UHGV virus genome: UHGV-0187445
Length of the DNA: 14,700 nucleotides
Reading direction: 5' to 3' (one strand)
Origin: a virus
The position numbers and the translations under genes were made by a program. The notes under the pieces are model-generated. The model ran no database searches, was not told the origin of the DNA, and saw only the letters and a program-made list of their open reading frames with translations. Of this stretch, positions 1 through 14,274 are shown one piece after another (the stretch's first letter is position 1; each line of letters opens with the position of its first letter).

Positions 1-122
1 GTCAGCGGCATAACGTCAGTAACGGATGGCGGCCAGTGAAAAATGGTGGCGATATCTGCCACCAGATCGTCAACCGTCAGGCTGTCGGTAAACCGGCAAG
101 CACCGACTTCTTCAACAAAAAA
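1..122 (-). CDS. E': E' extension of the E+E' tail assembly chaperone, copy 1 (partial; reached by -1 frameshift at slippery T TTT TTG, plus-strand 116..122); continues past window start
   Basis: Minus-strand -1 frame downstream of the heptamer is open to position 1 and encodes ...VADIATIFHWPP..., homologous to the copy-2 E' tail (...MADIAVIFHWRP...). Confidence 0.6.
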
Positions 123-379
123 GTGACAACCTCAACCGACATGGCAGTGAGATCTGCCGGGTCCATCTCTGCAATTTCCTGTGCAGTCAGTGCCGGACTG
201 GAGATGCGGGGGATCACGGTCATCATCGCGTTTACATCCATATCCATAATGGCCTGCAGGCGTGTACCGCGCAGCGCACCGGACTGCGGTTTACGCAGCA
301 CAATTTCGGTGATTTCTGTTTTACCGCGCTTGATGGGGGTATCCAGTTGAATGGTCTTTTCAGTCTGCTTATCGCTCAT
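77..379 (-). CDS. E: Phage tail assembly chaperone gpE (P2 E family), copy 1
   Basis: 100 aa ORF directly downstream of tube gene; contains in-frame ACT TTT TTG slippery heptamer near 3' end; position and size as P2 E. Confidence 0.85.
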   Translation of the reverse strand: MSDKQTEKTIQLDTPIKRGKTEITEIVLRKPQSGALRGTRLQAIMDMDVNAMMTVIPRISSPALTAQEIAEMDPADLTAMSVEVVTFLLKKSVLAGLPTA

Positions 380-433
380 TTTGCTGTCCTGTCAATTGGG
401 TTCTGGCGCGGTATCCCGCGCCGTTCAGATATA

Positions 434-949
434 TCAGAGGCCGAGGGCGTTGCGGTGCGCTTCCATCAGGTCCACACCGTCCACAATTTCCACCATGTTG
501 ATAAGGTCCACTTCATAGAGCACCTCACCATTGATGGTCAGCTTCGCGTAGCTGTTGGTACTGGTCACTTTGGTGGTGTTGCTTTCGCCCGTCTTCCACT
601 CGCCGGAATCCACTTCTTTGTGACGTCCACGCACGACAAGCTCCACGGCCTGCACTTCCCCGGTATCGTCACGCTGGATAGAGCCGGTAAAGCGCAGTTG
701 GATGCCATCCACCGTGGATTTGCCCATCTGCTTAAACAGCAGCAGTTCAGTACCACCAATGGAAAATTCTGTGTCCAGCGCACTGTCATCAAGCCCCAGA
801 TCCACATCCACCGCACCCGGCATTCCGCCGCCGCGATACTTCTCATATTTGCGGGTAAATTTCGGCAGCGTCAGCGACTCAACGATCCCCTGCCAGTTGT
901 TCCCGTCGTTAAACAGGTTCAGGTGTTTTAATTTGCGTGGTAAAGCCAT
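434..949 (-). CDS. FII: Phage major tail tube protein (P2 FII family), copy 1
   Basis: 171 aa, MALPRKLK... N-terminus and ...HRNALGL C-terminus typical of P2 FII; immediately downstream of sheath gene. Confidence 0.9.
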   Translation of the reverse strand: MALPRKLKHLNLFNDGNNWQGIVESLTLPKFTRKYEKYRGGGMPGAVDVDLGLDDSALDTEFSIGGTELLLFKQMGKSTVDGIQLRFTGSIQRDDTGEVQAVELVVRGRHKEVDSGEWKTGESNTTKVTSTNSYAKLTINGEVLYEVDLINMVEIVDGVDLMEAHRNALGL

Positions 950-958
950 GTTGTCCCC

Positions 959-2131
959 TTACGCGCTGACCTGGCTGGCGAAATTCACCAGGTACTGATC
1001 GGTGATGCGCTGACGCAGCATCAGGTTTTCAAGTGGCGGCACTGGCGTGTAGTCGTAGTCGATGGTGAGTTTTCCGGCTTTCAGCGTGTCTTTGTCGTTC
1101 ACCGACTCATCCAGCCAGCAATCACCACCAATGAGATAGCCCTGACTGACCAGGCTGCGCATTTTGGCGCGGATGCCCTCGATAATGTCGCGCGCCAGCG
1201 ACGGGTTCAGCGGTTTGTCCACTGCCCACATGTGTGCTTCTGCCATCGTGTCCATCAGCACCTGCGCCGTGCGGGTGTAGTTTTCGAAGGCAAAGAGCGG
1301 GTCATCACTCAGGCAGCGGGAACCCCAGAAGCGGAAACCGTCTTTGCGGATAAGGGTGGTGACGTCGTTCTGGTTCAGCAGTCCAGCATCGGTTGCCGTG
1401 TCCTGCAGATCCCAGAACACATCAGCAGAAATTCCAGTGACACCGTTAACGCCCACATTGGACAGGCTTTTGTGCCATCCGGTCTGCTCGTCAATTTTGG
1501 CGCGCAGACCAAGCGCACGAGCGGTGGCATATGCCGTTGCTTCGGCATTCAGCACCGTGTCCCAGCCAGTAAAGTCAGGCCAGATCAGCATCCCTTCGCG
1601 CTGGCTGAAGTTTTCGCGGTAAGTGATCGCCTCCTGCACTGTCTTGCAGCCATACGCTGACAGGTAAGCAAATCCACGCAGGCTTTGCGCCACGCTCAGC
1701 AACTCAGTAGCCACCGCCTTGGTGTCGTGGCCTGGCACGCCGAGAATGCGCGGTTTAACGCCGAGCTGTGACTGGGCAGATAACAGGGCTTTCATACCTG
1801 TTTTTTTACCTTCAGCAGTCACTGCGCCGATGATATTGGTCGTGGTTTCGTCTTCCGTTTCACCCTGCGGCACACGCACAACAATGGTCACGGGTTTTGC
1901 CTGGTCAGCGATGGCATCCAGCGAACGGGCCAGAGTACCGGACTCACCCGCTTTACCGCTGGCAGTCAGCACATCAGTGATCAGCACGGGTTTATTAAGA
2001 GGAAACATTTTTGCATCGGCATCATCGCCCGTGCAGACCATACCCACGATGGCGGTGCTCACCGTGGTAATAGATCGGGTGCCTTCGTTGACTTCAACAA
2101 CGCGCACCCCGTGGTGGTAATCCTGAGCCAT
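959..2131 (-). CDS. FI: Phage contractile tail sheath protein (P2 FI family), copy 1
   Basis: 390 aa; ...DYHHGV...[13 protein letters not shown]...[12 protein letters not shown]... motifs typical of P2 FI; AGGAGG RBS 8 nt upstream of ATG at 2131. Confidence 0.9.
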
Positions 2132-2207
2132 AGTGGCGAACCTCCTGATTGGATTAGGCTTCGCCCTATGTTGAAGTGATTGTGCCTGACAAACAGCTAA
2201 ACGCAGT

Positions 2208-2225
2208 TGTGTCGTTATTCACACA
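2208..2225 (-). promoter_or_regulatory. TGT-N12-ACA dyad (P2 late-promoter Ogr/Delta-type activator site), candidate P_F of module 1
   Basis: TGTgtcgttattcacACA seen directly; centre about 85 bp upstream of FI(1) ATG. Confidence 0.5.
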
Positions 2226-2273
2226 AAATAACGGTATTTGTCTGCTTGCAGGGATAATCAACATAATGCTGAT

Positions 2274-2840
2274 TCAGGGGGATTCATTGATCTTATTTGC
2301 CGGAAATTTTCTATAAATGGTAGAAACGCCTACATCAAAAATCAGTGCAATACGCTGTCTTGATTCTCCGGCCTCGAGTAAACGCCCAATCTGTGCCCAC
2401 TGTTCGGTGGTCAACTTAGGACGGCGTCCACCTACTCTGCCTTTGGCACGAGCTGCAGCCAGCCCTGCCCTGGTACGTTCAACTATCAGTTCGCGTTCCA
2501 TTTCAGCCAGGGCACCCATGACATGAAAAAAGAAACGGCCCATTGGGGTACTGGTATCAATACTGTCAGTCAGGCTTCTGAAATTCACACCACGCTGGCG
2601 CAACTCTTCTATCAGCGTAACAAGATGCCGCATACTGCGCCCCAACCTGTCCAGCTTCCAGACAACCAGCGTGTCTCCTGCCGATAGTGTCCTGAGTAGT
2701 TTTTTCAGCCCCGGTCTGTCGGACTTAGTGCCACTGATTTTGTCCTCAAAAATCCGCTCACATCCCGCGCAGTTCAGTGCATTACGTTGCAAATCGGTGT
2801 TCTGGTCATTTGTTGACACGCGTACATAGCCAATAAGCAT
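2274..2840 (-). CDS. Serine DNA invertase (Hin/Gin/Pin/Cin family), invertase A
   Basis: 188 aa from ATG at 2840 (AGGGGG RBS 6 nt upstream; ORF track start 2846 is 2 codons further). MLIGYVRVSTNDQ catalytic-serine N-terminus, ...GRFFFHVMGALAEMERELIVERT... and C-terminal HTH region typical of the family. Confidence 0.9.
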   Translation of the reverse strand: MLIGYVRVSTNDQNTDLQRNALNCAGCERIFEDKISGTKSDRPGLKKLLRTLSAGDTLVVWKLDRLGRSMRHLVTLIEELRQRGVNFRSLTDSIDTSTPMGRFFFHVMGALAEMERELIVERTRAGLAAARAKGRVGGRRPKLTTEQWAQIGRLLEAGESRQRIALIFDVGVSTIYRKFPANKINESP

Positions 2841-2867
2841 GATCATCCCCCTGAATAAAAACCGGAG

Positions 2868-3389
2868 ATGATGCCAGTTAGCTGTTACCTCTGCATTTTC
2901 TTAAACGTTGGTTTAGGGGAAGGCTCTGCGCTGCCTGTTGGTGTGCCTGTTCCATGGCCTTCAGCCACACCGCCAACAGGCTGGCTGAAATGCAACGGTG
3001 CGGCTTTTTCTGCTGAAGATTACCCTAATCTGGCAAAGGCTTACCCGACGTTAAAATTGCCTGATTTACGCGGTGAGTTTATTCGTGGCTGGGATGGTGG
3101 AAAGGGAGTGGATAGTGGGCGAACTCTGCTTTCAGCACAAGGAGATGCTATCCGAAACATTACCGGGGTGGTTGGCTACAGTTCAATTGGCGATTCACAA
3201 GGGTTATTAGGATACGTGTCAGGGGCCTTTTCGGCTTCGGAGTCAAAAGCTCCCGCATTAAGTGGTGCATCAGCATCCGGGTATCAACGCTCCCTGTATG
3301 CGAATTTTAATGCTTCAGCCGTTGTCCCAACCGCAAATGAGAACCGCCCACGTAACATTGCCTTTAATTATATTGTGAGGGCTGCATAA
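2868..3389 (+). CDS. Tail fibre variable C-terminal cassette (tail-collar-type domain), lacking a constant N-terminal fibre region
   Basis: 173 aa; ...PVGVPVPWPS...GWLKCNGAAFSAEDYPNLAKAYP...LPDLRGEFIRGWD... and C-terminal ...NIAFNYIVRAA resemble Mu S / P1 S-type fibre C-termini; in-frame stop only 3 codons upstream of ATG (2856..2858). Confidence 0.75.
   Translation: MMPVSCYLCIFLNVGLGEGSALPVGVPVPWPSATPPTGWLKCNGAAFSAEDYPNLAKAYPTLKLPDLRGEFIRGWDGGKGVDSGRTLLSAQGDAIRNITGVVGYSSIGDSQGLLGYVSGAFSASESKAPALSGASASGYQRSLYANFNASAVVPTANENRPRNIAFNYIVRAA
2896..2921. repeat. hix/gix-like 26 bp recombination site, left (TTTTCTTAAACG TT GGTTTAGGGGAA; core TT at 2908..2909)
   Basis: Half-sites show 8/12 dyad symmetry around a 2 bp core; resembles Hin-family crossover sites; 55 bp from invertase A start. 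Confidence 0.65.
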
Positions 3390-3991
3390 TGGATAACGCT
3401 GTATTAAATAGCGAGATTATTGCCACGAAGGCAGGGAATATTACCGTCTATAACTATGATGGTGAAATACGGGAATATATTTCCACTTCAAATGAATATC
3501 TTGCCGTTGGTGTTGGTATCCCGGCATATTCCTGTTTAGATTCACCAGGCACATATAAGGCTGGTTATGCTATCTGCCGTTCTGCAGATTTTAACTCATG
3601 GGAATATGTGCCAGACCATCGCGGTGAAATCGTCTATAACACCGAAACGGGAGAAGCCAAAGAAATCACAACTCCGGGTGATTACCCTGAAAATACAACC
3701 ACTATCGCCCCGTTAACGCCATACGATAAATGGGATGGTGAGAAATGGGTGACCGATACTGAGGCACAGCACGGCGCAGCAGTAGATGCAGCAGAAGCAC
3801 AGCGCCAGTCGCTGATTGATACTGCAATGGCCTCCATCAGTCTGATTCAACTGAAATTACAGGCCGGACGGAAGCTGACGCAGGCAGAAACAACCCGCCT
3901 TAACACTGTGCTGGATTACATTGACGTGGTGACGGCAACAGATACCAGCACAGCGCCGGACGTCATCTGGCCTGAACTGCCGGAGGCGTAG
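3389..3991 (+). CDS. Tail fibre assembly chaperone (Tfa/U family)
   Basis: 200 aa; start overlaps upstream stop (TAATG); C-terminal ...DVIWPELPEA motif typical of Tfa proteins. Confidence 0.8.
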   Translation: MDNAVLNSEIIATKAGNITVYNYDGEIREYISTSNEYLAVGVGIPAYSCLDSPGTYKAGYAICRSADFNSWEYVPDHRGEIVYNTETGEAKEITTPGDYPENTTTIAPLTPYDKWDGEKWVTDTEAQHGAAVDAAEAQRQSLIDTAMASISLIQLKLQAGRKLTQAETTRLNTVLDYIDVVTATDTSTAPDVIWPELPEA

Positions 3992-4403
3992 GCCATTCAA
4001 TATCTGGCGCACCGGAAGTATCGACCAGTTCCAGTGCGTACAGATAATCCAGCCACAAATTATATTGCGCCAGTTCCTCACCTTTCAGGCGACAAATCGC
4101 CGCTTTACCAGCCCATTGTCTACTGTTCATATAATCGTTGGCCTGATTAATCAATTGCTGCTTTTTAGTTTCGACTGATGCAATTTGTTCTTCACGTGTT
4201 GGCGGTGGAACATCTGCCCATGCTGGCATTCCATCGTCTCCGGTAATTCTGTACTTACCGTCAGGCGGCGTATCATGGAAATATTCCCTGAAAATAGCTT
4301 CGTCTATATCCACGCCTTTACCTTCGGGCCATTGGCCTTTTGCAGCGTAAACAGACTGGAGGGCATAAGGGTACGCCAGATTATCAACATACAAATATTT
4401 CAT
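3963..4403 (-). CDS. Alternative tail fibre assembly chaperone (Tfa/U' family)
   Basis: 146 aa; C-terminal ...DIEWPTPP... motif; convergent with and overlapping the other tfa by 29 bp. Confidence 0.8.
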   Translation of the reverse strand: MKYLYVDNLAYPYALQSVYAAKGQWPEGKGVDIDEAIFREYFHDTPPDGKYRITGDDGMPAWADVPPPTREEQIASVETKKQQLINQANDYMNSRQWAGKAAICRLKGEELAQYNLWLDYLYALELVDTSGAPDIEWPTPPAVQAR

Positions 4404-4405
4404 AA

Positions 4406-4735
4406 TTAACGCCCTTTCGCGTAGAAGGCTCCACCTTCAAAGCCATAGTTACAATGAGCAACGAAACCTGTTTTCGTCCAGTTAGTTGCGCCCCACATAT
4501 TCCCACCACCAAAACCGCCGTCATATACAATCACTACGTCTGGCTCCTGCGTAAAAGGAATGGTGAAAGTCACATTTGTAGATACCGCCGCGGCGTTATT
4601 CGGGAAATTAATTCTTCCCCACTGTTCAATTGAACCATCAGGCAATTTTTGCCAGCCAGATCCTGATGAATAAGCTGACATATCAGGTATCTGATTTTCC
4701 CCTGTTCCCACATTCCGTTTTGCCGCTTCTCCCAA
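4406..4735 (-). CDS. Alternative tail fibre variable C-terminal cassette (no ATG; ORF-track start is TTG; frame open only to 4759)
   Basis: 109 aa C-terminal glycine-rich fibre tip; N-terminus (..CIFKNVGLGE..) is encoded by the right crossover site and matches the left cassette's CIFLNVGLGE; stop at 4760..4762 immediately outside. Confidence 0.7.
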   Translation of the reverse strand: MGEAAKRNVGTGENQIPDMSAYSSGSGWQKLPDGSIEQWGRINFPNNAAAVSTNVTFTIPFTQEPDVVIVYDGGFGGGNMWGATNWTKTGFVAHCNYGFEGGAFYAKGR

Positions 4736-4752
4736 ACCAACGTTTTTGAAAA
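4727..4752. repeat. hix/gix-like 26 bp recombination site, right (inverted copy; core AA at 4739..4740 on plus strand)
   Basis: Reverse complement reads TTTTCAAAAACG TT GGTTTGGGAGAA, matching the left site at 22 of 26 positions; 54 bp from invertase B start. Confidence 0.65.
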
Positions 4753-4806
4753 TGCATAATTATTAGCCGAATGGCATGATTTATCGTTTTAAAGGAATGA
4801 AAAACC

Positions 4807-5388
4807 ATGCTTATTGGATATGTGCGCGTATCAACAAATGACCAGAACACGGCTTTGCAACGTGATGCGCTTGAGCGGTCAGGATGTGAGCTAATTTTTG
4901 AAGATAAAATGAGCGGGAGAACAGCGGAAAGGCCAGGGCTTAAAAAATTACTAAAGCGCCTTTCTCCAGAAGATACGCTTGTTGTCTGGAAGCTGGATCG
5001 TCTTGGGCGGAGTATGCGGAACTTGGTCATTCTGGTGGAGGAACTAAAGCAACGTTCCGTGAACTTCCGCAGCCTGACTGACAGTATTGATACCTCAACA
5101 CCAATGGGGCGTTTCTTTTTTCATGTTATGGGAGCACTGGCAGAGATGGAGAGAGAATTGATTGTCGAGCGTACGCGTGCAGGACTGGTGGCCGCTCGCG
5201 CGCAGGGAAGGATCGGCGGTAGACGTCCAAAACTAACACCAGAACAATGGGCGCAGGCGGGTAGGTTAATAGCGGCAGGGGAATCGCGCCGGAGGGTTGC
5301 CATAATTTATGATGTTGGGATATCTACGCTTTACAAAAAATTCCCAGCGACCAGAGATAAGAATTCCGGCACGCATGGCCGGTTATAA
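4807..5388 (+). CDS. Serine DNA invertase (Hin/Gin/Pin/Cin family), invertase B
   Basis: 193 aa; AAGGAA RBS; about 80% amino-acid identity by eye to invertase A, in opposite orientation. Confidence 0.9.
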   Translation: MLIGYVRVSTNDQNTALQRDALERSGCELIFEDKMSGRTAERPGLKKLLKRLSPEDTLVVWKLDRLGRSMRNLVILVEELKQRSVNFRSLTDSIDTSTPMGRFFFHVMGALAEMERELIVERTRAGLVAARAQGRIGGRRPKLTPEQWAQAGRLIAAGESRRRVAIIYDVGISTLYKKFPATRDKNSGTHGRL

Positions 5389-5472
5389 CCGTGCTGGCCG
5401 TGTGTATCGAGTACGGTCACTTTTAACGGTGCTGTAGCACGGTCAGTTATGGTGGTGTATTACGGAAGACGA

Positions 5473-5496
5473 AGCGGGCAATGGCCCGCTTTTCTT
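5473..5496 (+). terminator. Rho-independent terminator hairpin (AGCGGGC-aatg-GCCCGCT followed by TTTTCTT), overlapping the stop codon of U on the other strand
   Basis: 7 bp GC-rich stem plus T-tract seen directly; lies between convergent invertase B and U. Confidence 0.6.
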
Positions 5497-5944
5497 ATAT
5501 CGAAAGGTTGGTTTTCACCAGAGAGAAGAGATCGTCGGTAGTGGTTTCAGCCAGCTTTTCCCGTATGTCCTCGCTTACCCGTTTCAGGTTGAGCGTGAAA
5601 TCAATTTTCTTTGCCTTCCCGTCCTTAAAAAACTCCGTCCGGTTTTGCGTGATCTGCTCAATTACATACATGCCGTAGATCCTGCCCGTGCCTTCTATCA
5701 GGGGCCACGGGCGCCCGGAAAAAGCCATAGTTTCCAGCATGACAAGCGACACATCACCGCCGCTTATTTCGGGGTACAGCGTGCCGCTGAGTACGAACGG
5801 TTCTTCATCTGCGCCGATGAACTGATAGCGCGGGGATTTCCCCACGCGATCGTTTTTGACGTGCCGCCAGGAGTTGGTTTTATTCGCACTCTGGTAAGGT
5901 GTGGTTTGCAGTGAAAAGGGGAACATCCCCAGAATCATCATCAT
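5495..5944 (-). CDS. U: Phage tail protein gpU (P2 U family), module 2
   Basis: 149 aa; MMMILGMF... N-terminus and ...WPLIEGTGRIYGMYVIEQ... typical of P2 U; directly downstream of T. Confidence 0.85.
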   Translation of the reverse strand: MMMILGMFPFSLQTTPYQSANKTNSWRHVKNDRVGKSPRYQFIGADEEPFVLSGTLYPEISGGDVSLVMLETMAFSGRPWPLIEGTGRIYGMYVIEQITQNRTEFFKDGKAKKIDFTLNLKRVSEDIREKLAETTTDDLFSLVKTNLSI

Positions 5945-5953
5945 GATATTGCC

Positions 5954-8881
5954 TTAGACGTGATCGGTCAGTTGGGAGCGCTTGCGCCGGTCGGCCTGTT
6001 GCTTCGCTAACGCAAGTTCTTCGCGCACGCGCCTGATAATGGTTTCTTCATCCAGTTTCTGGCCGCTAAAGTCGAAGTTAAGGTTATATACATCGCCACC
6101 CGGAGCAGGCATCAGCGCAGCGACGGAAGCCGCAGACGGAGACGCCGAAACAGGCATCCGTGCGGCGGGCTTCTCAACCTGCCAAGGCGTAACGGAAGCG
6201 ATCAGCGATCCGGCCTGCTGCGTCACCCAATCGGTAAGGGATGGTAGCTGGCGCTGCGCCTGCTTAAGCGGTTCCGAATATCCGCCACGGATCGGGATAT
6301 AGGGCTGCTTATTCTTGAAGACAATTTCGCCGGGGCCGTCTTTCTTCTCCGTGGTATTGGTGGCGATCTTGTCCAGGCTGTTGCTCATCTTCGGCACGAT
6401 GTTGGCCGGGCCTTTGAGCGAGTTAATCAGGTTGTCCTGTTTCTTCTGCTCATCGGTTTTCTTTTTCTCTTCGGCTTTTTTGCTTTCCTTCGCGACTGCC
6501 TGCACGTCACCGGAAAAGGCGTTAACCCGGTCTGCCAGATTGTTTACCGCTTCCGGCGTCATTTGCTGCGCAACCTGCTGCGCTGCTTTCGCTGCGTCGG
6601 GAATGGCGCCCAGCTTTTCCAGAATCCAGCCCAGCCCTTTGGCTACGGCCTGAATGGGAAGCGTCAGCGCGCTGATTGCGGCCCCAACCACCTTACCGAA
6701 GGTTTCCCCTGCACTGGTGCAGGATGCCAGCGCTTCACTGGAAAACTGGATCGGCTCCAGTAGTTTGGTAAACCATTCCCAGACGCCGCTGATCGCGTTG
6801 CCGATACTGTTAAAAATCGGGGCCAGTGGTGCGAATACGGCGTTAAACGACTGCGTTATTGGTTGAAGGCCAGCCATCAGACCGGTAAAGAAGCCGCTGA
6901 AAAATGCCTTAATCGGTTGCCAGAATTTAATTACGGCCACTGCTACCGCAGCAAAGAGAGCAATCAGCCCCCAGACGGGCGCAGAAATGCCAGCCAGTAG
7001 CGTGATAAGCGGGCCGAATACCATGCGACCGGCGCTTAACAATGCCTGCATAGGCGAGCCAGCAAGCCACTGGAACGCACCACCCAGGCGCATTACTCCG
7101 CCAGTCAGACGCGCTATTCCTCCTTCCCCGGCCAGCGAGGTGAAGCTGAGGCGAACAAGTGCCATTGGGCCAAGTACTGCGCCGATGGACAGCATCAGGC
7201 CACCCATGACAACCAGCAAAGCGCCTATGGCTGCGGTGACTTTCATGATTGAACCAACCAGCGCTGGGTTTGCCTCCACCCAGCGGCGGACGCTGCCAAC
7301 CACCTTACTGACGGTAAGCATGATATCCATCAGCGGATCGCGAAGGGTTTCACCTGCTGAACTGAATGCGTTAACCGCGCCGGTTTTGGTCAGTTGCCAT
7401 TGAGCAGAAAGGGAAGCTTTATTGATATCAGACTCCCTATTCATGGAACCTTTAGCGGCTGCGCCCTGCGTCAGTTCTATCTGGCGGCGTAGTTCGGGCA
7501 GGTTGTTGGCAAGTTTCTGCGCATCATCGCCGAACTCTTTGCCAAAAATCTGGGTAAGGTTGGCTACCTGCTGATCCGGGGCCAGTTTTTTGGACGCTTC
7601 CAGCACTGAAATGATTGTGCCCATCGCGTCCACTGACATGCTCTTCTGAACTTTTTCGGCGCTGAGGCCGAGGGCGTCCAGACCCTGCATAAAGTTTTTG
7701 CCCTGAACCGTAGCGATTGAGAGTTCGCGCACCATTGCATTGGTGGCGCTGGCGGCAACTTCGGCAGGGGTGCCGAGCGTCAGAAAGGTGGAACCCAGCG
7801 CGGCGGCTTGCTTGTAATCCAGTTGGCTGGCAAGCCCACCAACGCGCTGGAGTACGTCGATAATATCGGAGCCTTTCGACTTCGCGTTATCGTCCAGGTA
7901 GTTTATGGCGTCGCCTAACTGTTCAATATTCTGGGTGGGGATTTTATACAGCCCGGCAATTTTCCCCAGGCTTTCAGAAAGCTGATCGGCGGGCAGTTCA
8001 AAGGCTACCGAAGCTTTTGCCGCCATGCTGGCAAAAGACAGCAGATCGGCTTTTTGCTTTTGCCAGGGATCATCGCTGTTTGCGACGCCCATACGCGCGC
8101 CGCCTTCGACCAGGGCGGCATAGTCAACAGCACCGTTAGCCATTGGCAGCTTTTCGCTGGCATCCATGATCGCCCGCTGCATTTCTTCATACTGCGGGGT
8201 GCGGTTGCCGCTGTCGTCACGTAAGCCATTTACCTGTTTGGCTACGCCCTTCATCGCGTCTTCGAGGCTGCTGTAGGATTTCACCGCAGCGGCGACAGGT
8301 ACGAGTGTTGCCGCCCCTACTGCGGCGGTTTTCATTCCCCCGCTCATCATCTTTTCGCCGGTTTCTTTGGCGCGGCTGTAACGGGCCTGCGCCTGGTTAA
8401 CAGCGTCAAGCCGTCGTTGCTGTTCAGCAAGCTGGCGGTTGTATTGCGCGGTGCGCTGGTTGATCTGTTCCGTCGCCCGGCTGGCGCTGCTGATCGCAAT
8501 GCCTTCGCTGTAGAAGCTGGCCCGCAACTGGTTAAGCTGCGTCTGCTCGCCTTTCTGCTGCTGGGTTAACTGGCGAATGGCTGCACGTTGCTGATTGAGG
8601 GCGGCAACTTGTTCGGCGCTGCGCTGGCGTAACGGGCCATAAGCCGCCGCCATTTGCCGGGCCTGTTCTTTCGCCTGGGCCAGTTGTTCGGTGGTTTTTT
8701 TATTGGCTGCGGTGAGGCGGTCAAAGCTGGTTGCCTGACGCTCAAGCCCTTTAATGCTGGTTTTAGTCTGGTTGATTTGAGACGCCAACGCGGCGGCACT
8801 CTGGCGCGCCGCGTTGACAGGGCGGGACATATTATTCAGGGCGCTGAATGCCACCCTGATATTTAAATTGCGGTCTGCCAT
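5954..8881 (-). CDS. T: Phage tail tape measure protein (P2 T family), module 2
   Basis: 975 aa; N-terminal coiled-coil-rich region, central hydrophobic segments, position between E' and U. Confidence 0.9.
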   Translation of the reverse strand: MADRNLNIRVAFSALNNMSRPVNAARQSAAALASQINQTKTSIKGLERQATSFDRLTAANKKTTEQLAQAKEQARQMAAAYGPLRQRSAEQVAALNQQRAAIRQLTQQQKGEQTQLNQLRASFYSEGIAISSASRATEQINQRTAQYNRQLAEQQRRLDAVNQAQARYSRAKETGEKMMSGGMKTAAVGAATLVPVAAAVKSYSSLEDAMKGVAKQVNGLRDDSGNRTPQYEEMQRAIMDASEKLPMANGAVDYAALVEGGARMGVANSDDPWQKQKADLLSFASMAAKASVAFELPADQLSESLGKIAGLYKIPTQNIEQLGDAINYLDDNAKSKGSDIIDVLQRVGGLASQLDYKQAAALGSTFLTLGTPAEVAASATNAMVRELSIATVQGKNFMQGLDALGLSAEKVQKSMSVDAMGTIISVLEASKKLAPDQQVANLTQIFGKEFGDDAQKLANNLPELRRQIELTQGAAAKGSMNRESDINKASLSAQWQLTKTGAVNAFSSAGETLRDPLMDIMLTVSKVVGSVRRWVEANPALVGSIMKVTAAIGALLVVMGGLMLSIGAVLGPMALVRLSFTSLAGEGGIARLTGGVMRLGGAFQWLAGSPMQALLSAGRMVFGPLITLLAGISAPVWGLIALFAAVAVAVIKFWQPIKAFFSGFFTGLMAGLQPITQSFNAVFAPLAPIFNSIGNAISGVWEWFTKLLEPIQFSSEALASCTSAGETFGKVVGAAISALTLPIQAVAKGLGWILEKLGAIPDAAKAAQQVAQQMTPEAVNNLADRVNAFSGDVQAVAKESKKAEEKKKTDEQKKQDNLINSLKGPANIVPKMSNSLDKIATNTTEKKDGPGEIVFKNKQPYIPIRGGYSEPLKQAQRQLPSLTDWVTQQAGSLIASVTPWQVEKPAARMPVSASPSAASVAALMPAPGGDVYNLNFDFSGQKLDEETIIRRVREELALAKQQADRRKRSQLTDHV

Positions 8882-9082
8882 TTAGTGATCTCCACCACTG
8901 CGCGCAGCCGCCTGATCACGCCATAACAGTATTTCCTGTACCGTCATGGCGTCCATCTCTACCGGCCGCCAGTGGAATATGACGGCGATATCTGCCATCA
9001 GGTCTTCTATGCGTTCGCAGGGGCATCGGATGATTCGTTGCCCGTATCCGTCGCGGTCAGATCCGAAGAGGGTTGCAAAAAA
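8882..9082 (-). CDS. E': E' extension of E+E' fusion, module 2 (-1 programmed frameshift at T TTT TTG, plus-strand 9076..9082); full E+E' spans 8882..9342
   Basis: Hand translation of the -1 frame from the heptamer gives a stop-free 66-codon tail (FATLFGSDRDGYGQRIIRCPCERIEDLMADIAVIFHWRPVEMDAMTVQEILLWRDQAAARSGGDH) ending at TAA 8882..8884, directly abutting the T start codon (TAAATG). Confidence 0.75.
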   Translation of the reverse strand, partial: FFATLFGSDRDGYGQRIIRCPCERIEDLMADIAVIFHWRPVEMDAMTVQEILLWRDQAAARSGGDH

Positions 9083-9342
9083 TCAACCACCGCGTTGGCT
9101 AGCTGGCAAAAATCCCAGGTATCCATACGGGCAATCTCATCGGCGGTTAGTGCCGGAGCGGTAACGCGGGGCAGCAGAATAACCAGCGCGTCATAGTTGG
9201 AAGTCAGCACGTCATAGGCTTTTAAGCCGCGCAGTGATCCAGCCTGTTTAAGCACGGAAGTGATCGCCACTTCGGTGATTTTGGTCTTACCGCGCGTAAT
9301 AGGGGCGGTAAGAATAACGGTGTTTTCTTTGGTTTTGCTCAT
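9007..9342 (-). CDS. E: Phage tail assembly chaperone gpE, module 2
   Basis: 111 aa; in-frame GAT TTT TTG heptamer 25 codons before the stop; downstream of tube gene. Confidence 0.85.
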   Translation of the reverse strand: MSKTKENTVILTAPITRGKTKITEVAITSVLKQAGSLRGLKAYDVLTSNYDALVILLPRVTAPALTADEIARMDTWDFCQLANAVVDFLQPSSDLTATDTGNESSDAPANA

Positions 9343-9356
9343 GGTGCCGGGTTTCC

Positions 9357-9872
9357 TTATAGGCCGATGTTAGCGCGGTGTTTTTCCAGCACATCCACAC
9401 CGGCAACTTTGTAGATCATGTTGAGCACATCAACTTCGATAATCTCTTCGCCGTTGATGGTCAGCTTGTAATAGGTGTTTTTCAGGGTGTACTTATGCGA
9501 AGTGTCATCCCCGACTTTTGCCGAACCGGGATCCAGTTCAGTGAAGCGGCCACGCGTCTGGATTTCGCACGGTACAGCGTCGCCGGTTGCGTCGTCCTGA
9601 TAGGAGCCAGCAAAACGTGTTTGCATCCCGTCCGCAGTGGTAACGCCCCATTTTTTCAGCAATCCGGCATCCAGACCGCCAAGCGTGATATCCATATCCA
9701 GGGCGCCAGCGTCGAAGCCAAGATCCACCGCAACCGAACCTGGCATACCACCCGCCTGGTAGTCTTCGGTTTTTTTGGTGAGTTTGGCGGGGGTGATTTC
9801 CGGCACCATGCCGAAGTAGTTATCCCCGTCAAAGAACATATTGAAATATTTGAGTTTCTTAGGCAGTGCCAT
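9357..9872 (-). CDS. FII: Phage major tail tube protein (P2 FII family), module 2
   Basis: 171 aa; MALPKKLKYFNMF... and ...HRANIGL; same length as module-1 FII but highly diverged. Confidence 0.9.
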   Translation of the reverse strand: MALPKKLKYFNMFFDGDNYFGMVPEITPAKLTKKTEDYQAGGMPGSVAVDLGFDAGALDMDITLGGLDAGLLKKWGVTTADGMQTRFAGSYQDDATGDAVPCEIQTRGRFTELDPGSAKVGDDTSHKYTLKNTYYKLTINGEEIIEVDVLNMIYKVAGVDVLEKHRANIGL

Positions 9873-9884
9873 AAGCGCCCCCGG

Positions 9885-11078
9885 TTAGTTATTCACTGCG
9901 CTGGAAAACGTAGCGAAATATTCGTCGGTGAACTCCTGTACCAGGCTGAGATTTTCCAGCGGTGGAACAGGGGTGTAGTTGTACTTAATGGTCAGTTGAC
10001 CATTGCGCAGGGTTTCCGAGGTATTCGGTTCCGGGTCATACCAGCAGCGGGCGCCCAGCAGCTTGCCAGCCGTCACGTATGAGGTCAGCTTCTTATTGAT
10101 GCCGTCCACAATGTCCTTTACCAGCGACGGGGTAAGCGGTTTATCAACATAGGCGAAATGGGCTTCGGCGACGGTATCCGCAACTATCTGCGCGGTTCGG
10201 GTATAGCTTTCGAAGATATACGTTTCCGCGTCGCAGGTACGCGATCCCCAGATGCGGTAGCCGTCCTGCTTGATCAGCGTGGTAACGCCTGCTGCGTTCA
10301 GTTCGTCGGCGTCGGTATCGGTGCCCTGCAACGTGAAATAGATATCCCGATCCATCCCCAGCACGTTATTAACGGGCACGTTGGAAATGGTTTTATGCCA
10401 GCCCTGCGTTGCGTCGATTTTGGCTCGCATCCCAACAGCATGGGCACCCACGGGCACGGTGGCATTAGCCCCGGCGTTGGTGTCGTAGCAGATGAAATTA
10501 GGCCAGATAACCATCATTTCACGCTGGGAGAATTGCTCGCGGTATTCCTTCACTTCGGCGATTGTGTTGCAACCGTTCGCTGCCACGTAAGCAAACGCGC
10601 GCAGCTTTTCGGCAATGACGCCGAGTTGTGCGGCTACCGCTTCCGTATCAAGCCCTGGAACAGCCAGTACACGCGGGCGCACACCTACGCGCATTTCGGC
10701 AGACAGCAGCGCGTACATGCCGGTAAAGCGCCCGTTTGCATCGGTGCCGCCAATAACCAGTTGATCCTGGGTCTGTGCGGTGCCGCCTTCTGGCGGTTCG
10801 ATATTTGCAGCATCAGCAACGCGGATCACAATGGTTTGCGGGCTGGTCTGGTCTGAAATCGCTTTCAGGGTGGTAAACAGGGTGCCGGTTTTACCTGCCT
10901 TGCCCAGCATGTTAGCCACGCGGGTAATCAGTACAGGGGTATCCAGCGGGAACGCTGTTTCGTCCGCATCATCAGCGGTGCAGACAACGCCGATCACCGC
11001 CGAATCAATGTCGGTGATCATCGTGCTAAGGTCGGTGGTTTCCGTGACGGTTACACCGTGATGGTAGTTAGTGGCCAT
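9885..11078 (-). CDS. FI: Phage contractile tail sheath protein (P2 FI family), module 2
   Basis: 397 aa; ...NYHHGV...TTLIKQDGYRIWG...[12 protein letters not shown]...; roughly half the residues identical to module-1 FI by eye. Confidence 0.9.
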   Translation of the reverse strand: MATNYHHGVTVTETTDLSTMITDIDSAVIGVVCTADDADETAFPLDTPVLITRVANMLGKAGKTGTLFTTLKAISDQTSPQTIVIRVADAANIEPPEGGTAQTQDQLVIGGTDANGRFTGMYALLSAEMRVGVRPRVLAVPGLDTEAVAAQLGVIAEKLRAFAYVAANGCNTIAEVKEYREQFSQREMMVIWPNFICYDTNAGANATVPVGAHAVGMRAKIDATQGWHKTISNVPVNNVLGMDRDIYFTLQGTDTDADELNAAGVTTLIKQDGYRIWGSRTCDAETYIFESYTRTAQIVADTVAEAHFAYVDKPLTPSLVKDIVDGINKKLTSYVTAGKLLGARCWYDPEPNTSETLRNGQLTIKYNYTPVPPLENLSLVQEFTDEYFATFSSAVNN

Positions 11079-11150
11079 GTATTTGCCTCGCCAGTTTAAT
11101 GACTGCGAATATCATTGCGGCAATGGCGGGCCGATGCGATGGATAAGGGT

Positions 11151-11168
11151 TGTCAGCAACCTGCAACA
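11151..11168. promoter_or_regulatory. TGT-N12-ACA dyad (P2 late-promoter activator site) between divergent FI(2) and D
   Basis: TGTcagcaacctgcaACA seen directly; centre about 81 bp upstream of FI(2) ATG and about 77 bp upstream of D ATG. Confidence 0.5.
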
Positions 11169-11235
11169 ATGACGGGGCGTTGTTCATGCGCGCGCGCGTG
11201 GCGACGATGTACCCCATCATGATGAAGGGGTTGAT

Positions 11236-12354
11236 ATGGACACGACAGAAAACCGATATTCGCCGCGCCCGGCGTTCAGTATTGAGATTGAAGGTAAGCA
11301 GCTTACGGCGCTGGATAACCGGCTGATCTCCCTTTCCCTGACAGATAACCGGGGCTTTGAAGCGGACACGCTGGATCTGACTCTGGATGATGCAGACGGG
11401 CAGGTAGCCTTACCATCACGCGGCGCAAAGATATCGGTGGCGCTGGGCTGGGATAATGATCCATTGGTTTTTAAGGGCGTGTATACGGTTGACGAGATCG
11501 GACACTCTGGCCCGCCTGACCAGCTAACGATCAGTGCCAGAAGCGCAGATTTCCGCGATACCTTTAACGTGAAGAGGGAATATAGCTGGCACGATATTAC
11601 CGTGGGGGATGTGGTTGCCAGCATTGCCAGCCGTTACGATCTGCGTGCGGGCGTCAGCGAAGAACTGGCGAAGATTGAGATAGATCACGCCGATCAGACG
11701 AGTGAATCAGATATCAGCTTCTTAACGCGCATGGCCGAAATGCTGGGCGCGGTGGCAACCATTAAAAACGGTATGCTTCTGTTTATCACGCCGGGCAAGG
11801 GAGTAACGCAGAGCGGCAAGCCGCTGCCGGTGATCGAGATAGTCCGGTCAAGCGGTGATAAACATCGGTTTAACGTAGCTGACCGCGACGCGTACACGGG
11901 CGTAACTGCATACTGGCTTGATCTCAACTTTGGCAAGAAACCATCCACTACCGTGAAGAAAACCACCCGCAGGCGACGAACCAGCCAGGCCAAAAAGAAA
12001 GAACCCGCATCAAGCAAAAAAGAAGGGGATTATCTGGCCGGGGCCGAAGGCAACGTTTTTGTTATCCGTAAAACCTTCAAGACGGAAAAGGCGGCAAAGC
12101 GTGCCGCAGCGGCTAAGTGGCGGGAGTTGCAGCGCGGGGCGGCTACGTTCAGCATCACCCTGGCGCGTGGGCGCGCGGATTTGTACCCGGAACAGCCAGC
12201 CAGTGTTTATGGGTTTAAGTCCACGATCGACAGTGGAAGCTGGACGATAACACGGTGCGTTCACGATGTTGGCGGGGGAGGGTTTACCACGTCGCTGGAA
12301 CTGGAAGTAAAAATCGACGACTGGACAGCGGAGAGTGACGATTCAACGTCTTAA
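11236..12354 (+). CDS. D: Phage late control / tail protein gpD (P2 D family)
   Basis: 372 aa; ...DLTLDDADGQVALPSRGAKISVALGW...GPPDQLTISARSADFRDTFNVKREYSW...DAYTGVTAYW... typical of P2 D; GAAGGGG RBS. Confidence 0.85.
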   Translation: MDTTENRYSPRPAFSIEIEGKQLTALDNRLISLSLTDNRGFEADTLDLTLDDADGQVALPSRGAKISVALGWDNDPLVFKGVYTVDEIGHSGPPDQLTISARSADFRDTFNVKREYSWHDITVGDVVASIASRYDLRAGVSEELAKIEIDHADQTSESDISFLTRMAEMLGAVATIKNGMLLFITPGKGVTQSGKPLPVIEIVRSSGDKHRFNVADRDAYTGVTAYWLDLNFGKKPSTTVKKTTRRRRTSQAKKKEPASSKKEGDYLAGAEGNVFVIRKTFKTEKAAKRAAAAKWRELQRGAATFSITLARGRADLYPEQPASVYGFKSTIDSGSWTITRCVHDVGGGGFTTSLELEVKIDDWTAESDDSTS

Positions 12355-12402
12355 GCGTTATACTTGCGTTGATATTAACCAGTCATGAAAGGAGGCCCGC
12401 GT

Positions 12403-12645
12403 ATGGCAATGCGCTGTCCTCGCTGCCGTGCTATAGCAAAAACCAGAACCAGCGTTGAGCTGAGTTTGCTTGTACGGCGCAGCTATCACCAGTGTCAAAA
12501 CATGTTATGCGGGTACTGTTTCACCAGCATGACGGAAATAGACGGTTCATTAAACCAGACCCAGCCAGCGCCCGGCGCGATGGTGCCACAAGAAGCTTTT
12601 CCACGAAGTCACCACGGCGAAGATCAGCTATCGCTGGCACTGTAA
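12403..12645 (+). CDS. ogr: Late-gene transcriptional activator, Ogr/Delta zinc-finger family
   Basis: 80 aa from ATG at 12403 (AAAGGAGG RBS 7 nt upstream); CPRC ... HQCQNMLC Cys4 motif matching the Ogr ...YHQCQN.C signature; follows D as in P2. Confidence 0.8.
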   Translation: MAMRCPRCRAIAKTRTSVELSLLVRRSYHQCQNMLCGYCFTSMTEIDGSLNQTQPAPGAMVPQEAFPRSHHGEDQLSLAL

Positions 12646-12647
12646 AA

Positions 12648-12676
12648 ATAACCCGCCTACATGGCGGGTTTCTTAT
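12648..12676 (+). terminator. Rho-independent terminator after ogr (ACCCGCC-tacat-GGCGGGT then TTCTTAT)
   Basis: Hairpin plus U-rich tract seen directly, 5 nt after ogr stop. Confidence 0.6.
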
Positions 12677-12734
12677 ACCTGTTACCCCTGATATTATTTT
12701 TCAACTTTCACAGTGGTGCTTAAAAGGTAGGGAT

Positions 12735-13118
12735 ATGAAAAAGTTAATCATGGTACTTGCGCTGTTTAGCCTTGTTGGATGTAAGCCCGGTGCTGATAAA
12801 GCGGTTGAGTTGGGGCAGAAAGAAGTTGCTTCAAGTATGCGCGATCCTGATAGCGCGAAATTCAGGTATGTACGTTTTGTTCAGAAAGACGAAGCTGCTG
12901 ATGGTGCTGTTGTCGGTTACGTCTGCGGGCAGGTAAACGCCAAAAATGCGTTTGGTGCGTATGCTGGTTTTGCACCTTTTGAAATGGAATTGTCGATGAA
13001 GTCGAAGGGGTTCTTCTCAAAAGGGGTAACTTACTCTGTATTTAACAAGCAACTGTATTCAGACCCAGGACAGGTAAACATGGCCGAATATACGAAGAAG
13101 TGCGGCCCTGATCAATAG
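12735..13118 (+). CDS. Small lipoprotein of unknown function (signal peptide with lipobox LVGC); candidate prophage cargo
   Basis: 127 aa from ATG at 12735 (GGTAGGG RBS); MKKLIMVLALFSLVGC lipoprotein signal; no family recognised by eye. Confidence 0.65.
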   Translation: MKKLIMVLALFSLVGCKPGADKAVELGQKEVASSMRDPDSAKFRYVRFVQKDEAADGAVVGYVCGQVNAKNAFGAYAGFAPFEMELSMKSKGFFSKGVTYSVFNKQLYSDPGQVNMAEYTKKCGPDQ

Positions 13119-13145
13119 GTTAAGTTTTAGGCAAATGTTTGAATA

Positions 13146-13290: not shown

Positions 13291-13371
13291 ATCCTCAATT
13301 TGCCTGCTGCTTAATGCATTGCAGATGATTTGCTTCCGTTATACTAGCGTCAGTTGATAGCGGGAGTATTT

Positions 13372-14274
13372 ATGAATCAATCTTATGGACGGCTGGTCAG
13401 TCGGGCGGCGATTGCTGCGACGGCGATGGCTTCGTTGCTATTGCTGATTAAAATTTTTGCATGGTGGTATACCGGGTCGGTGAGTATTCTCGCCGCGCTG
13501 GTGGATTCGCTGGTGGATATCGGCGCGTCGTTGACGAATTTACTGGTGGTGCGATATTCCCTGCAACCTGCCGACGATAATCACTCGTTTGGTCACGGTA
13601 AAGCTGAGTCCCTCGCGGCGCTGGCGCAAAGTATGTTTATCTCCGGTTCGGCACTATTCCTGTTTTTGACGGGTATTCAACATCTGATATCTCCAACACC
13701 GATGACAGATCCAGGCGTTGGGGTTATCGTGACAATTGTGGCGCTAATTTGTACGATTATCCTTGTCTCGTTTCAGCGTTGGGTGGTGCGGCGGACGCAA
13801 AGCCAGGCGGTGCGGGCTGATATGCTACATTACCAGTCTGATGTTATGATGAACGGTGCAATTCTGCTGGCGCTGGGGTTGTCCTGGTACGGCTGGCATC
13901 GCGCCGATGCTCTGTTTGCATTGGGAATCGGCATCTATATTTTATATAGCGCGTTACGCATGGGATATGAGGCGGTACAGTCATTACTGGATCGCGCATT
14001 GCCTGATGAGGAACGGCAAGAAATTATTGATATCGTGACTTCCTGGCCGGGTGTTAGCGGCGCTCACGATCTTCGCACGCGGCAGTCAGGGCCGACCCGC
14101 TTTATTCAGATTCATTTGGAAATGGAAGACTCTCTGCCTTTGGTTCAGGCACATATGGTGGCGGATCAGGTAGAGCAGGCTATTTTACGGCGTTTTCCGG
14201 GATCGGATGTGATTATCCATCAGGACCCCTGTTCCGTCGTACCCAGGGAGGGTAAACGGTCTATGCTTTCATAA
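13372..14274 (+). CDS. fieF: Ferrous-iron/zinc efflux cation diffusion facilitator FieF (YiiP)
   Basis: 300 aa from [13 protein letters not shown]...; recognised as E. coli FieF; ORF-track start at 13354 is an upstream in-frame extension. Confidence 0.93.

What the first reader, a model, noticed from the sequence alone, without database searches (positions are those of the whole stretch)
2274..5388. Orphan tail-fibre shufflon flanked by two divergent invertase genes, with no constant fibre gene on either side
Canonical invertible fibre segments (Mu G, P1 C, e14 P) have a constant fibre N-terminal gene reading through one crossover site and a single invertase beyond the other. Here both sides are invertase-proximal: invertase A starts 55 bp outside the left site and invertase B 54 bp outside the right site, pointing away from the segment, and their upstream leaders are recognisably related. 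Both fibre cassettes have their frame closed by a stop just outside the site (2856..2858 and 4760..4762), so neither orientation can fuse a cassette to a fibre shaft. The two invertases are about 80% identical at protein level, also forming a roughly 570 bp imperfect inverted repeat. This layout is what one inversion between crossover sites of two co-resident P2-like elements would produce, or it could be a free-standing switch expressing short fibre-tip proteins.
Basis: partly seen in the sequence, partly recalled or inferred. Interest (0 to 1): 0.8.

Follow-up and report, generated by a model that had tools for sequence, protein, structure and literature searches.

The report
Two half-prophages joined at fibre switch
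An ordinary Mu Gin-type invertible tail-fibre segment sits between the tail-gene halves of two different P2-like prophages, as expected after the two prophages recombined through that segment, so it is a rearrangement scar (or an assembly chimera), not a new kind of switch.

Summary
A 1.83-kb segment (two opposed fibre-tip cassettes, each with its own assembly gene) is bounded by two 26-bp Gin/Pin-type crossover sites in inverted orientation. Two intact invertase genes, 79% identical, point away from it, and no constant fibre gene reads in.

The two sides belong to different phages. Window 1-2921 is the invertase-to-tail end of a P2-like prophage that normally sits at rybB/ybjL. Window 2903-14700 matches, with 16-17 mismatches, a second P2-like prophage type at fieF. 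In that type a constant fibre gene normally reads into the left site.

So the locus is two right-hand prophage halves fused through the segment. Gene orientations on the K-12 map fit a chromosomal inversion of about 1.4 Mb (or the complementary 3.2 Mb).

The same segment occurs nearly unchanged in at least five phage backgrounds, and identity stops at the sites' central TT. I therefore favour invertase-catalysed exchange between prophages (0.38). RecA recombination inside a shared segment (0.22) and an assembler mis-join (0.28) are not excluded.

No complete E. coli genome shows this junction, and the source assembly could not be recovered. "Shufflon" and "free-standing switch" are not supported. 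Interest is moderate.

The parts
77..379 (-). gpE-like tail assembly chaperone of prophage type 1 (left half-prophage)
   Evidence: ORF; annotated as phage tail assembly protein at the same position in relatives that are 98-99% identical
434..949 (-). tail tube (FII) of prophage type 1
959..2131 (-). tail sheath (FI) of prophage type 1; this exact protein is rare (found on two metagenome contigs only)
2274..2846 (-). invertase A, Gin/Pin-family serine invertase belonging to prophage type 1 (likely start 2840)
   Evidence: window 1-2922 is 99.1% identical to type-1 prophages L008/L013
2896..2921 (+). left 26-bp crossover site; outer half TTTTCTTAAACG is the type-1 invertase-proximal kind; central TT at 2908-2909
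2868..3389 (+). fibre-tip cassette a (Phage Tail Collar domain), closed by TAA 2856-2858
3389..3991 (+). tail fibre assembly protein for cassette a (200 aa); the identical protein is listed in 496 blocks of the assembly collection, in many phage types
3963..4403 (-). tail fibre assembly protein for cassette b (146 aa)
4406..4735 (-). fibre-tip cassette b (Gp53-like_C domain), closed by TAA 4762-4760
4727..4752 (-). right 26-bp crossover site; outer half TTTTCAAAAACG is the type-2 invertase-proximal kind; central TT at 4739-4740
4807..5388 (+). invertase B, Gin/Pin-family serine invertase belonging to prophage type 2
   Evidence: window 4731-14700 is 99.9% identical to L003 and L019
5495..11078 (-). 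gpU, tape measure, gpE, tube and sheath of prophage type 2; this operon is on the opposite strand in the normal layout of that phage
11236..12645 (+). gpD and Ogr of prophage type 2, the right end of the prophage
13354..14274 (+). host gene fieF, the normal right flank of prophage type 2

Best explanation
The locus is a recombination joint between two different resident P2-like prophages. Prophage 1 normally reads: rybB/ybjL flank, ogr, D, U, T, E, FII, FI, invertase A, site, segment, site, constant fibre gene H1, then the rest of the phage. Prophage 2 normally reads: rest of the phage, constant fibre gene H2, site, segment, site, invertase B, U-T-E-FII-FI on the other strand, D, ogr, fieF. 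On the chromosome both have the same polarity (H, segment, invertase), so an invertase-proximal site of one is inverted relative to the H-proximal site of the other. One exchange between such a pair inverts the DNA between the prophages. It leaves one junction with two invertases and no H gene, which is this window. It predicts a reciprocal junction in which H2 and H1 face each other across a segment. I favour catalysis by the Gin/Pin-family invertases at the 26-bp sites, which all share a central TT and near-identical inner half-sites. What is shown: the anatomy, the origin of each side, and the orientation logic. What is inferred: that the event was site-specific, that the reciprocal junction exists, and that the left flank is rybB. 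Expected consequences (inferred): the segment should still flip, because it keeps two invertase genes and two good sites. Neither cassette can be fused to a fibre shaft here. Neither prophage can excise until the inversion is reversed. A second exchange at the other site pair would restore the chromosome but leave the two phages with swapped host-range segments.
For: Type-1 prophages match window 1-2922 at 99.1% (L008/L013). Type-2 prophages at fieF match 2903-14700 with 16-17 mismatches (L018, L024) and have H2 reading into the site at 2896-2921. Both outer half-sites in the window are invertase-proximal kinds, from two different phages. The H-proximal outer halves are TTCTCGCATACC in type 1 and TTCTACAAAACC in type 2. 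In the normal type-2 phage the order is H, segment, invertase, then U-T-E-FII-FI reversed, D, ogr, fieF, so only the left side of the segment is foreign. K-12 has rybB and ybjL on the minus strand and fieF on the plus strand. The window-oriented type-1 half carries rybB/ybjL on the plus strand. The two halves are therefore inverted relative to each other, as an inversion predicts. The only retrievable left continuation (E1V33 contig, L040) runs T1-U1-D1-ogr1, the att core, then 42/42 nt of rybB host DNA, not the phage int-side arm. The same segment (at least 99.7% identical) lies in at least five phage backgrounds whose H-side flanks are unrelated, and identity ends at the central TT. That pattern needs exchanges at the sites. 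Both orientations of the segment occur in type 1 (L008 vs L028), in type 2 (L007 vs L011), and in the type-2 prophage of sister isolates 0H23 vs 0H26, which carries a different segment. Published work shows these invertases acting in trans on another prophage (PMC12529663) or infers it from sequence (PMC4134206).
Against: The crossover point cannot be placed. Type-1 prophages with this very segment exist (L032 has 0 mismatches over 2743-4740), and so do type-2 prophages (L007 differs only at 4081 and 4094). The exchange could therefore lie anywhere between 2908 and 4740. My two earlier site-level mappings each depended on which relative was chosen. From established knowledge of Gin/Hin-type invertases, they normally need both sites and a Fis-bound enhancer on one supercoiled domain, and action over more than a megabase is not documented. 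The implied inversion would put about 1.4 Mb of one replichore head-on to replication, which is rarely seen fixed (inference). None of 5426 complete E. coli genomes has the junction. All roughly 25 genomes carrying type 2 are canonical. The source assembly was not recovered, and the only exact match to the window's start is a contig that ends 86 nt into the window.
Confidence: 0.38

Rival explanations
1. The same inter-prophage inversion, but made by RecA-dependent homologous recombination inside a 1.83-kb segment that both prophages carried in opposite orientation. The invertases only set the relative orientation beforehand.
For: Both phage types are found with a near-identical copy of this segment (L032 has 0 differences, L007 has 2), so 1.8 kb of homology was plausibly available. 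Prophage-to-prophage homologous recombination is the documented route to large inversions in E. coli O157:H7 (PMC8743559, abstract listed).
Against: It needs both residents to carry the same segment at the same time. It does not explain why the segment's identity ends exactly at the central dinucleotide across unrelated phages, although that pattern concerns older events, not this one.
Confidence: 0.22
2. Assembly chimera. The genome holds two canonical prophages that share the same 1.83-kb flipping segment, and the assembler joined the invertase-A flank to the invertase-B flank through the collapsed repeat.
For: The segment is a near-exact repeat across prophages. Flipping makes every flank-to-cassette junction read-supported. 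The EC958 PacBio study reports spurious alternative contigs at such loci (PMC4134206). The E1V33 contig breaks 86 nt into the window, so the assembly is fragmented there. Two metagenome contigs show similar odd joins (L031, L037). No closed genome shows this junction. The implied inversion should be costly (inference).
Against: Most assemblers break at such a repeat rather than cross it. The window runs through the segment into more than 2.8 kb of unique sequence on the left and about 10 kb on the right. The orientation logic fits a real inversion, although a chimera would fit it equally.
Confidence: 0.28
3. Nested prophage. A circular type-1 phage genome integrated into the segment of the resident type-2 prophage, by homologous or invertase-mediated fusion. 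The whole type-1 genome would then lie to the left, and the reciprocal junction would be about 30 kb away with no chromosomal inversion.
For: It gives the same window sequence and avoids the cost of a megabase inversion. The window itself stops in gpE1, so it cannot exclude this.
Against: It predicts that ogr1 is followed by the attP int-side arm. The only retrievable left continuation (L040) has the rybB host arm instead, 42/42 nt identical to the lysogens in the alignment, while phage KP12's int-side arm is unrelated there. That argument rests on L040 being the true neighbour of the window, which is supported only by an 86-nt exact overlap.
Confidence: 0.08
4. A free-standing, selected switch that uses two invertases to express short fibre-tip proteins (173 and 109 aa) without a shaft.
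For: ORFs with start codons exist for both cassettes. One paper reports a function for a chimeric product of the e14 segment (PMC12529663).
Against: The same closed ORF next to the invertase leader is present in every canonical prophage as the silent cassette. No consensus promoter was found in the two leaders, and promoter-like hits over 2100-5600 are no more than chance. Each flank is simply half of a known prophage. The arrangement is not seen in 5426 complete genomes.
Confidence: 0.03

Closest known systems
Mu G segment with Gin; also P1 C with Cin and e14 P with Pin (the Din family of serine invertases)
   Same: Invertase A matches Gin over residues 3-186 at E=1e-92. The sites are 26 bp with a 2-bp core, in inverted orientation. 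Two opposed sets of fibre tip plus assembly gene are present. The invertase gene starts about 55 bp outside a site and reads away from the segment.
   Different: There are two invertase genes, one on each side, and no constant fibre gene reads through either site.
Invertible tail-fibre regions of P2-like prophages in E. coli (for example EC958 Phi2, PMC4134206; EPEC P2-like prophages, PMC4272514)
   Same: Same site type with a central TT (EC958 Phi2: ...TTACC TT GGTTTAGGAGAA). Same cassette architecture (Collar domain tip plus assembly gene). Each half of the window is at least 99% identical to such prophages.
   Different: Those loci sit inside one intact prophage. Here the two flanks come from two prophages with different attachment sites.
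Prophage-mediated large chromosomal rearrangements in E. coli O157:H7 (PMC8743559)
   Same: Two resident prophages serve as the endpoints of a large inversion, splitting both prophages.
   Different: Those events are attributed to homologous recombination between long, similar prophage regions. Here the shared DNA is only the 1.83-kb invertible segment bounded by recombinase sites.
R64-type shufflon (Rci tyrosine recombinase with multiple sfx repeats)
   Same: Both use DNA inversion to change the C-terminus of an adhesin-like protein.
   Different: The recombinase here is of the serine class, there are only two sites, and there is a single segment. The term shufflon does not apply.

Membership tests
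Din (Gin/Cin/Pin/Hin) serine DNA invertases | N-terminal resolvase catalytic domain with the active-site serine in the motif YxRVSTxxQ | tested here: met
   Pfam Resolvase at E=2e-53 (A) and 7e-50 (B). Both proteins contain YVRVSTNDQ. Invertase A aligns end to end with Gin 3UJ3.
Din (Gin/Cin/Pin/Hin) serine DNA invertases | C-terminal HTH_7 DNA-binding domain and a size of about 190 aa | tested here: met
   HTH_7 at E=1.5e-15 and 3.9e-13; lengths 190 and 193 aa.
Din (Gin/Cin/Pin/Hin) serine DNA invertases | Two 26-bp crossover sites in inverted orientation with identical central dinucleotides | tested here: met
   Sites at 2896-2921(+) and 4727-4752(-), both with a central TT. There are 2 matches against 0 in 200 shuffles. 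They agree with the published consensus quoted in PMC4134206.
Din (Gin/Cin/Pin/Hin) serine DNA invertases | Fis-dependent recombinational enhancer inside the 5' part of the invertase gene | not tested
   No reliable sequence test is available with these tools. By analogy with gin, cin and hin, each invertase gene here would carry one, so this joint would have two and the reciprocal joint none.
Din (Gin/Cin/Pin/Hin) serine DNA invertases | The segment is actually found in both orientations | tested here: inconclusive
   Not testable for this locus from one sequence. In relatives the same segment occurs in both orientations (L007 vs L011, L008 vs L028, L006 vs L009). The type-2 prophage segment also differs in orientation between sister isolates 0H23 and 0H26.
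Canonical invertible tail-fibre locus (Mu G, P1 C, e14 P, P2-like) | A constant fibre gene (N-terminal shaft) reads in frame through one crossover site | tested here: not met
   In-frame stops lie 38 and 8 nt outside the two sites. The neighbouring genes are invertases, then sheath and gpU. In canonical relatives H reads into the site.
Canonical invertible tail-fibre locus (Mu G, P1 C, e14 P, P2-like) | A single invertase gene lies outside the other site | tested here: not met
   There are two intact invertase genes, one outside each site.
Canonical invertible tail-fibre locus (Mu G, P1 C, e14 P, P2-like) | Two opposed fibre C-terminal cassettes, each followed by its own assembly (chaperone) gene | tested here: met
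   Collar cassette plus Caudo_TAP on the plus strand; Gp53-like_C cassette plus Caudo_TAP on the minus strand.
Shufflon (R64 type) | Tyrosine recombinase Rci and several (four or more) repeats that delimit several segments | tested here: not met
   Both recombinases are of the serine resolvase class, and only two sites are present in the window.

The most novel reading that the evidence does not exclude
Phage Gin/Pin-family invertases recombine crossover sites of different resident prophages more than a megabase apart. This would give a reversible chromosome-scale inversion that locks both prophages in place. The window would be the first-crossover intermediate of the process by which host-range segments are swapped between unrelated prophages.
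Probability: 0.15. Interest if true: 0.7.

Novelty: new variant of a known kind. Interest (0 to 1): 0.4.

Why it matters
If the junction is real, it would directly show that invertible host-range segments link unrelated prophages into one recombination network. An exchange at one site pair splits and immobilises two prophages and inverts about 1.4 Mb of chromosome. A second exchange would swap host-range cassettes between the phages. That would explain why the same 1.83-kb segment, cut exactly at the central dinucleotide, is found in P2-like, Mu-like and other prophages. It also gives a simple experimental handle: four-primer PCR across the four possible junctions. If it is an artefact, it warns that these shared, flipping segments produce chimeric joins in draft assemblies.

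Tried and rejected
1) I first placed the breakpoint in the right site, because the window matched a type-1 relative (O25b, L005) up to CCAA and type 2 after it. I then placed it in the left site, because L007/L024 match from 2903 at 99.9% and L008 matches up to 2922. I withdrew both when type-1 contigs with the identical segment turned up (L032, L028). The crossover can lie anywhere in 2908-4740.

2) I read the opposite-strand FI-to-U block as a second rearrangement. I rejected this because it is the normal layout of the type-2 phage.

3) I searched for the source genome by exact-protein look-up with five proteins. Only canonical contexts or short metagenome contigs came back. A literature search for E1V33 found nothing.

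4) I looked for the same junction in 5426 complete E. coli genomes with the whole window, with the 400-nt right junction, and with a chimeric H2-side plus invertase-B-side query. No recombinant was found. Type 2 is present in only about 25 genomes.

5) The promoter and terminator scan of 2100-5600 gave nothing above chance and no consensus promoter in the leaders.

6) Literature searches found no report of invertase-mediated inversion between prophages. They found only trans-action, segment 'translocation' among prophages in ST131 isolates, and homologous-recombination inversions.

7) L031 and L037 were examined as possible further hybrids, but their partner sides have no relatives among my loci, so they stay unresolved.
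Full report
WHAT IS THERE

The window holds, left to right:
- gpE, tube and sheath genes on the minus strand (77-2131);
- invertase A on the minus strand (2274-2846);
- a 1.83-kb segment;
- invertase B on the plus strand (4807-5388);
- gpU, tape measure, gpE, tube and sheath on the minus strand (5495-11078);
- gpD and ogr on the plus strand (11236-12645);
- a small ORF, then the host gene fieF (13354-14274).

The segment contains four genes:
- a Collar-domain fibre tip (2868-3389, plus strand) followed by a 200-aa assembly protein;
- on the other strand, a Gp53-like_C fibre tip (4406-4735) followed by a 146-aa assembly protein.

Two 26-bp sites bound the segment: TTTTCTTAAACG TT GGTTTAGGGGAA at 2896-2921(+) and TTTTCAAAAACG TT GGTTTGGGAGAA at 4727-4752(-). 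They are the only matches in the window, against none in 200 shuffles.

The invertases are 79% identical and carry Resolvase and HTH_7 domains. Invertase A aligns end to end with Mu Gin, PDB 3UJ3, at E=1e-92. In-frame TAA codons at 2856-2858 and 4762-4760 close both cassettes just outside the sites. Only the word "shufflon" is loose.

WHERE EACH SIDE COMES FROM

The right side is a P2-like prophage that I call type 2. In several E. coli genomes it lies at fieF in this order: baseplate genes, constant fibre gene H2, segment, invertase, then U-T-E-FII-FI on the opposite strand, D, ogr, fieF. The opposite-strand tail operon is thus normal for this phage and not a second rearrangement. Window 4731-14700 is 99.9% identical to strain 0H23. 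Window 2903-14700 differs at only 16-17 positions from L018 and L024, where H2 reads into the site that corresponds to 2896-2921.

The left side is a different P2-like prophage, type 1. Its usual order is rybB/ybjL flank, ogr, D, U, T, E, FII, FI, invertase, segment, constant fibre gene H1, baseplate. Window 1-2922 is 99.1% identical to L008/L013, and window 1-4740 is 99.4% identical to L032.

Each phage type has its own outer half-sites:
- type 1: TTTTCTTAAACG next to the invertase, TTCTCGCATACC next to H;
- type 2: TTTTCAAAAACG next to the invertase, TTCTACAAAACC next to H.

The window carries the two invertase-proximal versions, one from each phage. The locus is therefore two "right halves" of two prophages joined through one invertible segment.

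GEOMETRY

In K-12, rybB and ybjL are on the minus strand at 0.888 Mb, and fieF is on the plus strand at 4.106 Mb. In window orientation the type-1 half carries ybjL and rybB on the plus strand, while fieF is also plus. The two halves are therefore inverted relative to each other compared with K-12.

Both prophages have the same polarity on the normal map (H, segment, invertase). An invertase-proximal site of one is then inverted relative to the H-proximal site of the other. One reciprocal exchange inverts the interval between them: about 3.2 Mb containing oriC and dif, or equivalently the complementary 1.4 Mb. It yields exactly the junction seen here. It also predicts a reciprocal junction in which H2 and H1 face each other across a segment.

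A type-1-like prophage at ssrA (strain TOK-001) has the opposite polarity. It could give this junction only by deleting oriC. The rybB location is therefore the one that works.

The only retrievable continuation to the left is the end of an Escherichia sp. E1V33 contig whose last 86 nt equal window 1-86. It runs through T1, U1, D1 and ogr1 and the 19-bp att core (position taken from the attR annotation of phage 4LV2017). It then continues into 42 nt identical to rybB host DNA. Phage KP12 has an unrelated int-side arm at that position. This favours a chromosomal inversion over insertion of a whole circular type-1 genome. The link between that contig and the window rests only on the 86-nt overlap.

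HOW THE JOINT WAS MADE

I could not place the crossover. My first two mappings, in the right site and then the left site, each depended on which relative I used. Once more relatives were in hand the picture changed:
- type-1 contig L032 has no mismatch to the window between 2743 and 4740;
- type-2 loci L007, L018 and L024 differ inside the segment only at 4081 and 4094 (L024 also at 3267).

Both phage types can carry this segment, so the exchange may lie anywhere between the two central dinucleotides.

Evidence for the invertase route is indirect but real. The same segment (at least 99.7% identical) occurs in type 1, in type 2, in another myovirus (L006/L009/L014), in a Mu-like prophage (L012) and in L010; an e14-like element (L015) shares its left site and most of the segment at about 93%. 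The H-side flanks are unrelated, and identity stops at the central TT at both ends. Moving a segment between such phages needs one exchange at each site. The first of these gives a joint of the kind seen here.

The segment is also found in both orientations within each phage type. The type-2 prophage segment differs in orientation between sister isolates. Such invertases have been shown (PinQ on e14, PMC12529663) or inferred from sequence (EC958, PMC4134206) to act in trans on another prophage's segment.

Several points count against the invertase route:
- From general knowledge, these enzymes need sites and enhancer in one supercoiled domain.
- Ordinary homologous recombination over 1.8 kb is the documented cause of inversions between prophages (PMC8743559).
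- The implied inversion would turn about 1.4 Mb of one replichore against replication (inference).

IS IT REAL?

No complete E. coli genome of 5426 has more than 72% of the window in one place. The 400-nt right junction has no close match. All roughly 25 genomes carrying type 2 are canonical.

The source assembly was not retrievable. The sheath protein of the left half is found only on two short metagenome contigs. The E1V33 contig stops 86 nt into the window.

A near-exact 1.83-kb repeat that flips is a classic cause of mis-joins and of extra contigs (PMC4134206). I therefore keep an assembly chimera at about 0.28.

My split is:
- invertase-mediated exchange, 0.38;
- homologous recombination, 0.22;
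- assembly chimera, 0.28;
- nested insertion, 0.08;
- selected free-standing switch, 0.03.

CONSEQUENCES IF REAL (INFERRED)

- The segment here should still flip. It has two invertase genes, and its two outer half-sites differ at only two positions.
- Neither cassette can be joined to a shaft.
- At the reciprocal joint both cassettes would be fused to a shaft gene at once, but no invertase gene (or any enhancer inside it) would be nearby.
- The late operons stay intact, because the break falls between the H/G unit and the FI operon. However, attL and attR of each prophage are separated, so neither can excise until the inversion reverses.

COMPARISON AND NOVELTY

By sequence and site structure this is a member of the Gin/Cin/Pin/Hin invertase systems. 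It fails two defining features of a canonical invertible fibre locus: a constant gene reading through one site, and a single invertase. It fails them because it is a recombinant of two such loci, not because it is a new system.

My literature searches found no description of an invertase-flanked, shaft-less segment, nor of an invertase-mediated inversion between prophages. A preprint on ST131 isolates does note "translocation" of fibre segments among three prophages.

I rate it a new variant of a known kind, of moderate interest. Its value depends on confirming the junction in reads.

Noticed in passing
window 2908-4740; L006, L007, L008, L009, L010, L011, L012, L014, L024, L028, L032 (segment at about 9508-11364 in most loci); L015 in part: The same 1.83-kb invertible segment (at least 99.7% identical) sits in at least five different prophage backgrounds: two P2-like types, another myovirus, a Mu-like prophage and L010. 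An e14-like element (L015) shares its left site and most of the segment at about 93%. Identity ends exactly at the central TT of the 26-bp sites, and the outer half-sites are phage-specific.
   Followed up: partly
window 5495-12645; L001 20804-27954: The type-2 P2-like phage normally has its FI-FII-E-T-U tail operon on the strand opposite to D and ogr, unlike P2 itself. About 25 of 5426 complete E. coli genomes carry this phage.
   Followed up: partly
L040 1-61; K-12 887979-888057: The type-1 prophage is integrated at the 3' end of the small RNA gene rybB, downstream of ybjL. The 19-bp att core overlaps the rybB terminator.
   Followed up: partly
window about 12735-13118 (+): A 127-aa ORF with a lipoprotein-like signal (LALFSLVGC) lies between ogr and fieF. 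It is conserved at this prophage end in relatives and annotated as hypothetical. It is probably phage cargo.
   Followed up: no
L031 1-12241 (metagenome NODE_1192): A type-1 sheath and invertase are joined, through a segment, to the fibre gene of a Mu-like baseplate cluster. This is either a second hybrid between prophages or a chimeric metagenome contig.
   Followed up: partly
L037 1-9865 (metagenome scaffold): A type-1 sheath, invertase, cassette a and assembly gene are followed by a truncated assembly gene and then terminase and portal genes. The join is odd and unexplained.
   Followed up: no
L001 vs L003 (strains 0H26 and 0H23): Closed genomes of sister isolates differ in the orientation of the type-2 prophage segment, so the switch is active in nature.
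   Followed up: yes
L004 17501-24282 (strain 1332KP): In this genome the type-2 ogr end is followed by integrase, cox and replication genes of a P2-like genome instead of fieF. This suggests a tandem or differently located copy.
   Followed up: no
L040 (NZ_RHJI01000005.1 304001-309235): The only exact match to the window's first 60 nt in the species-representative genomes is a 309-kb contig of Escherichia sp. E1V33 that ends 86 nt into the window. The window itself could not be retrieved from any collection.
   Followed up: partly
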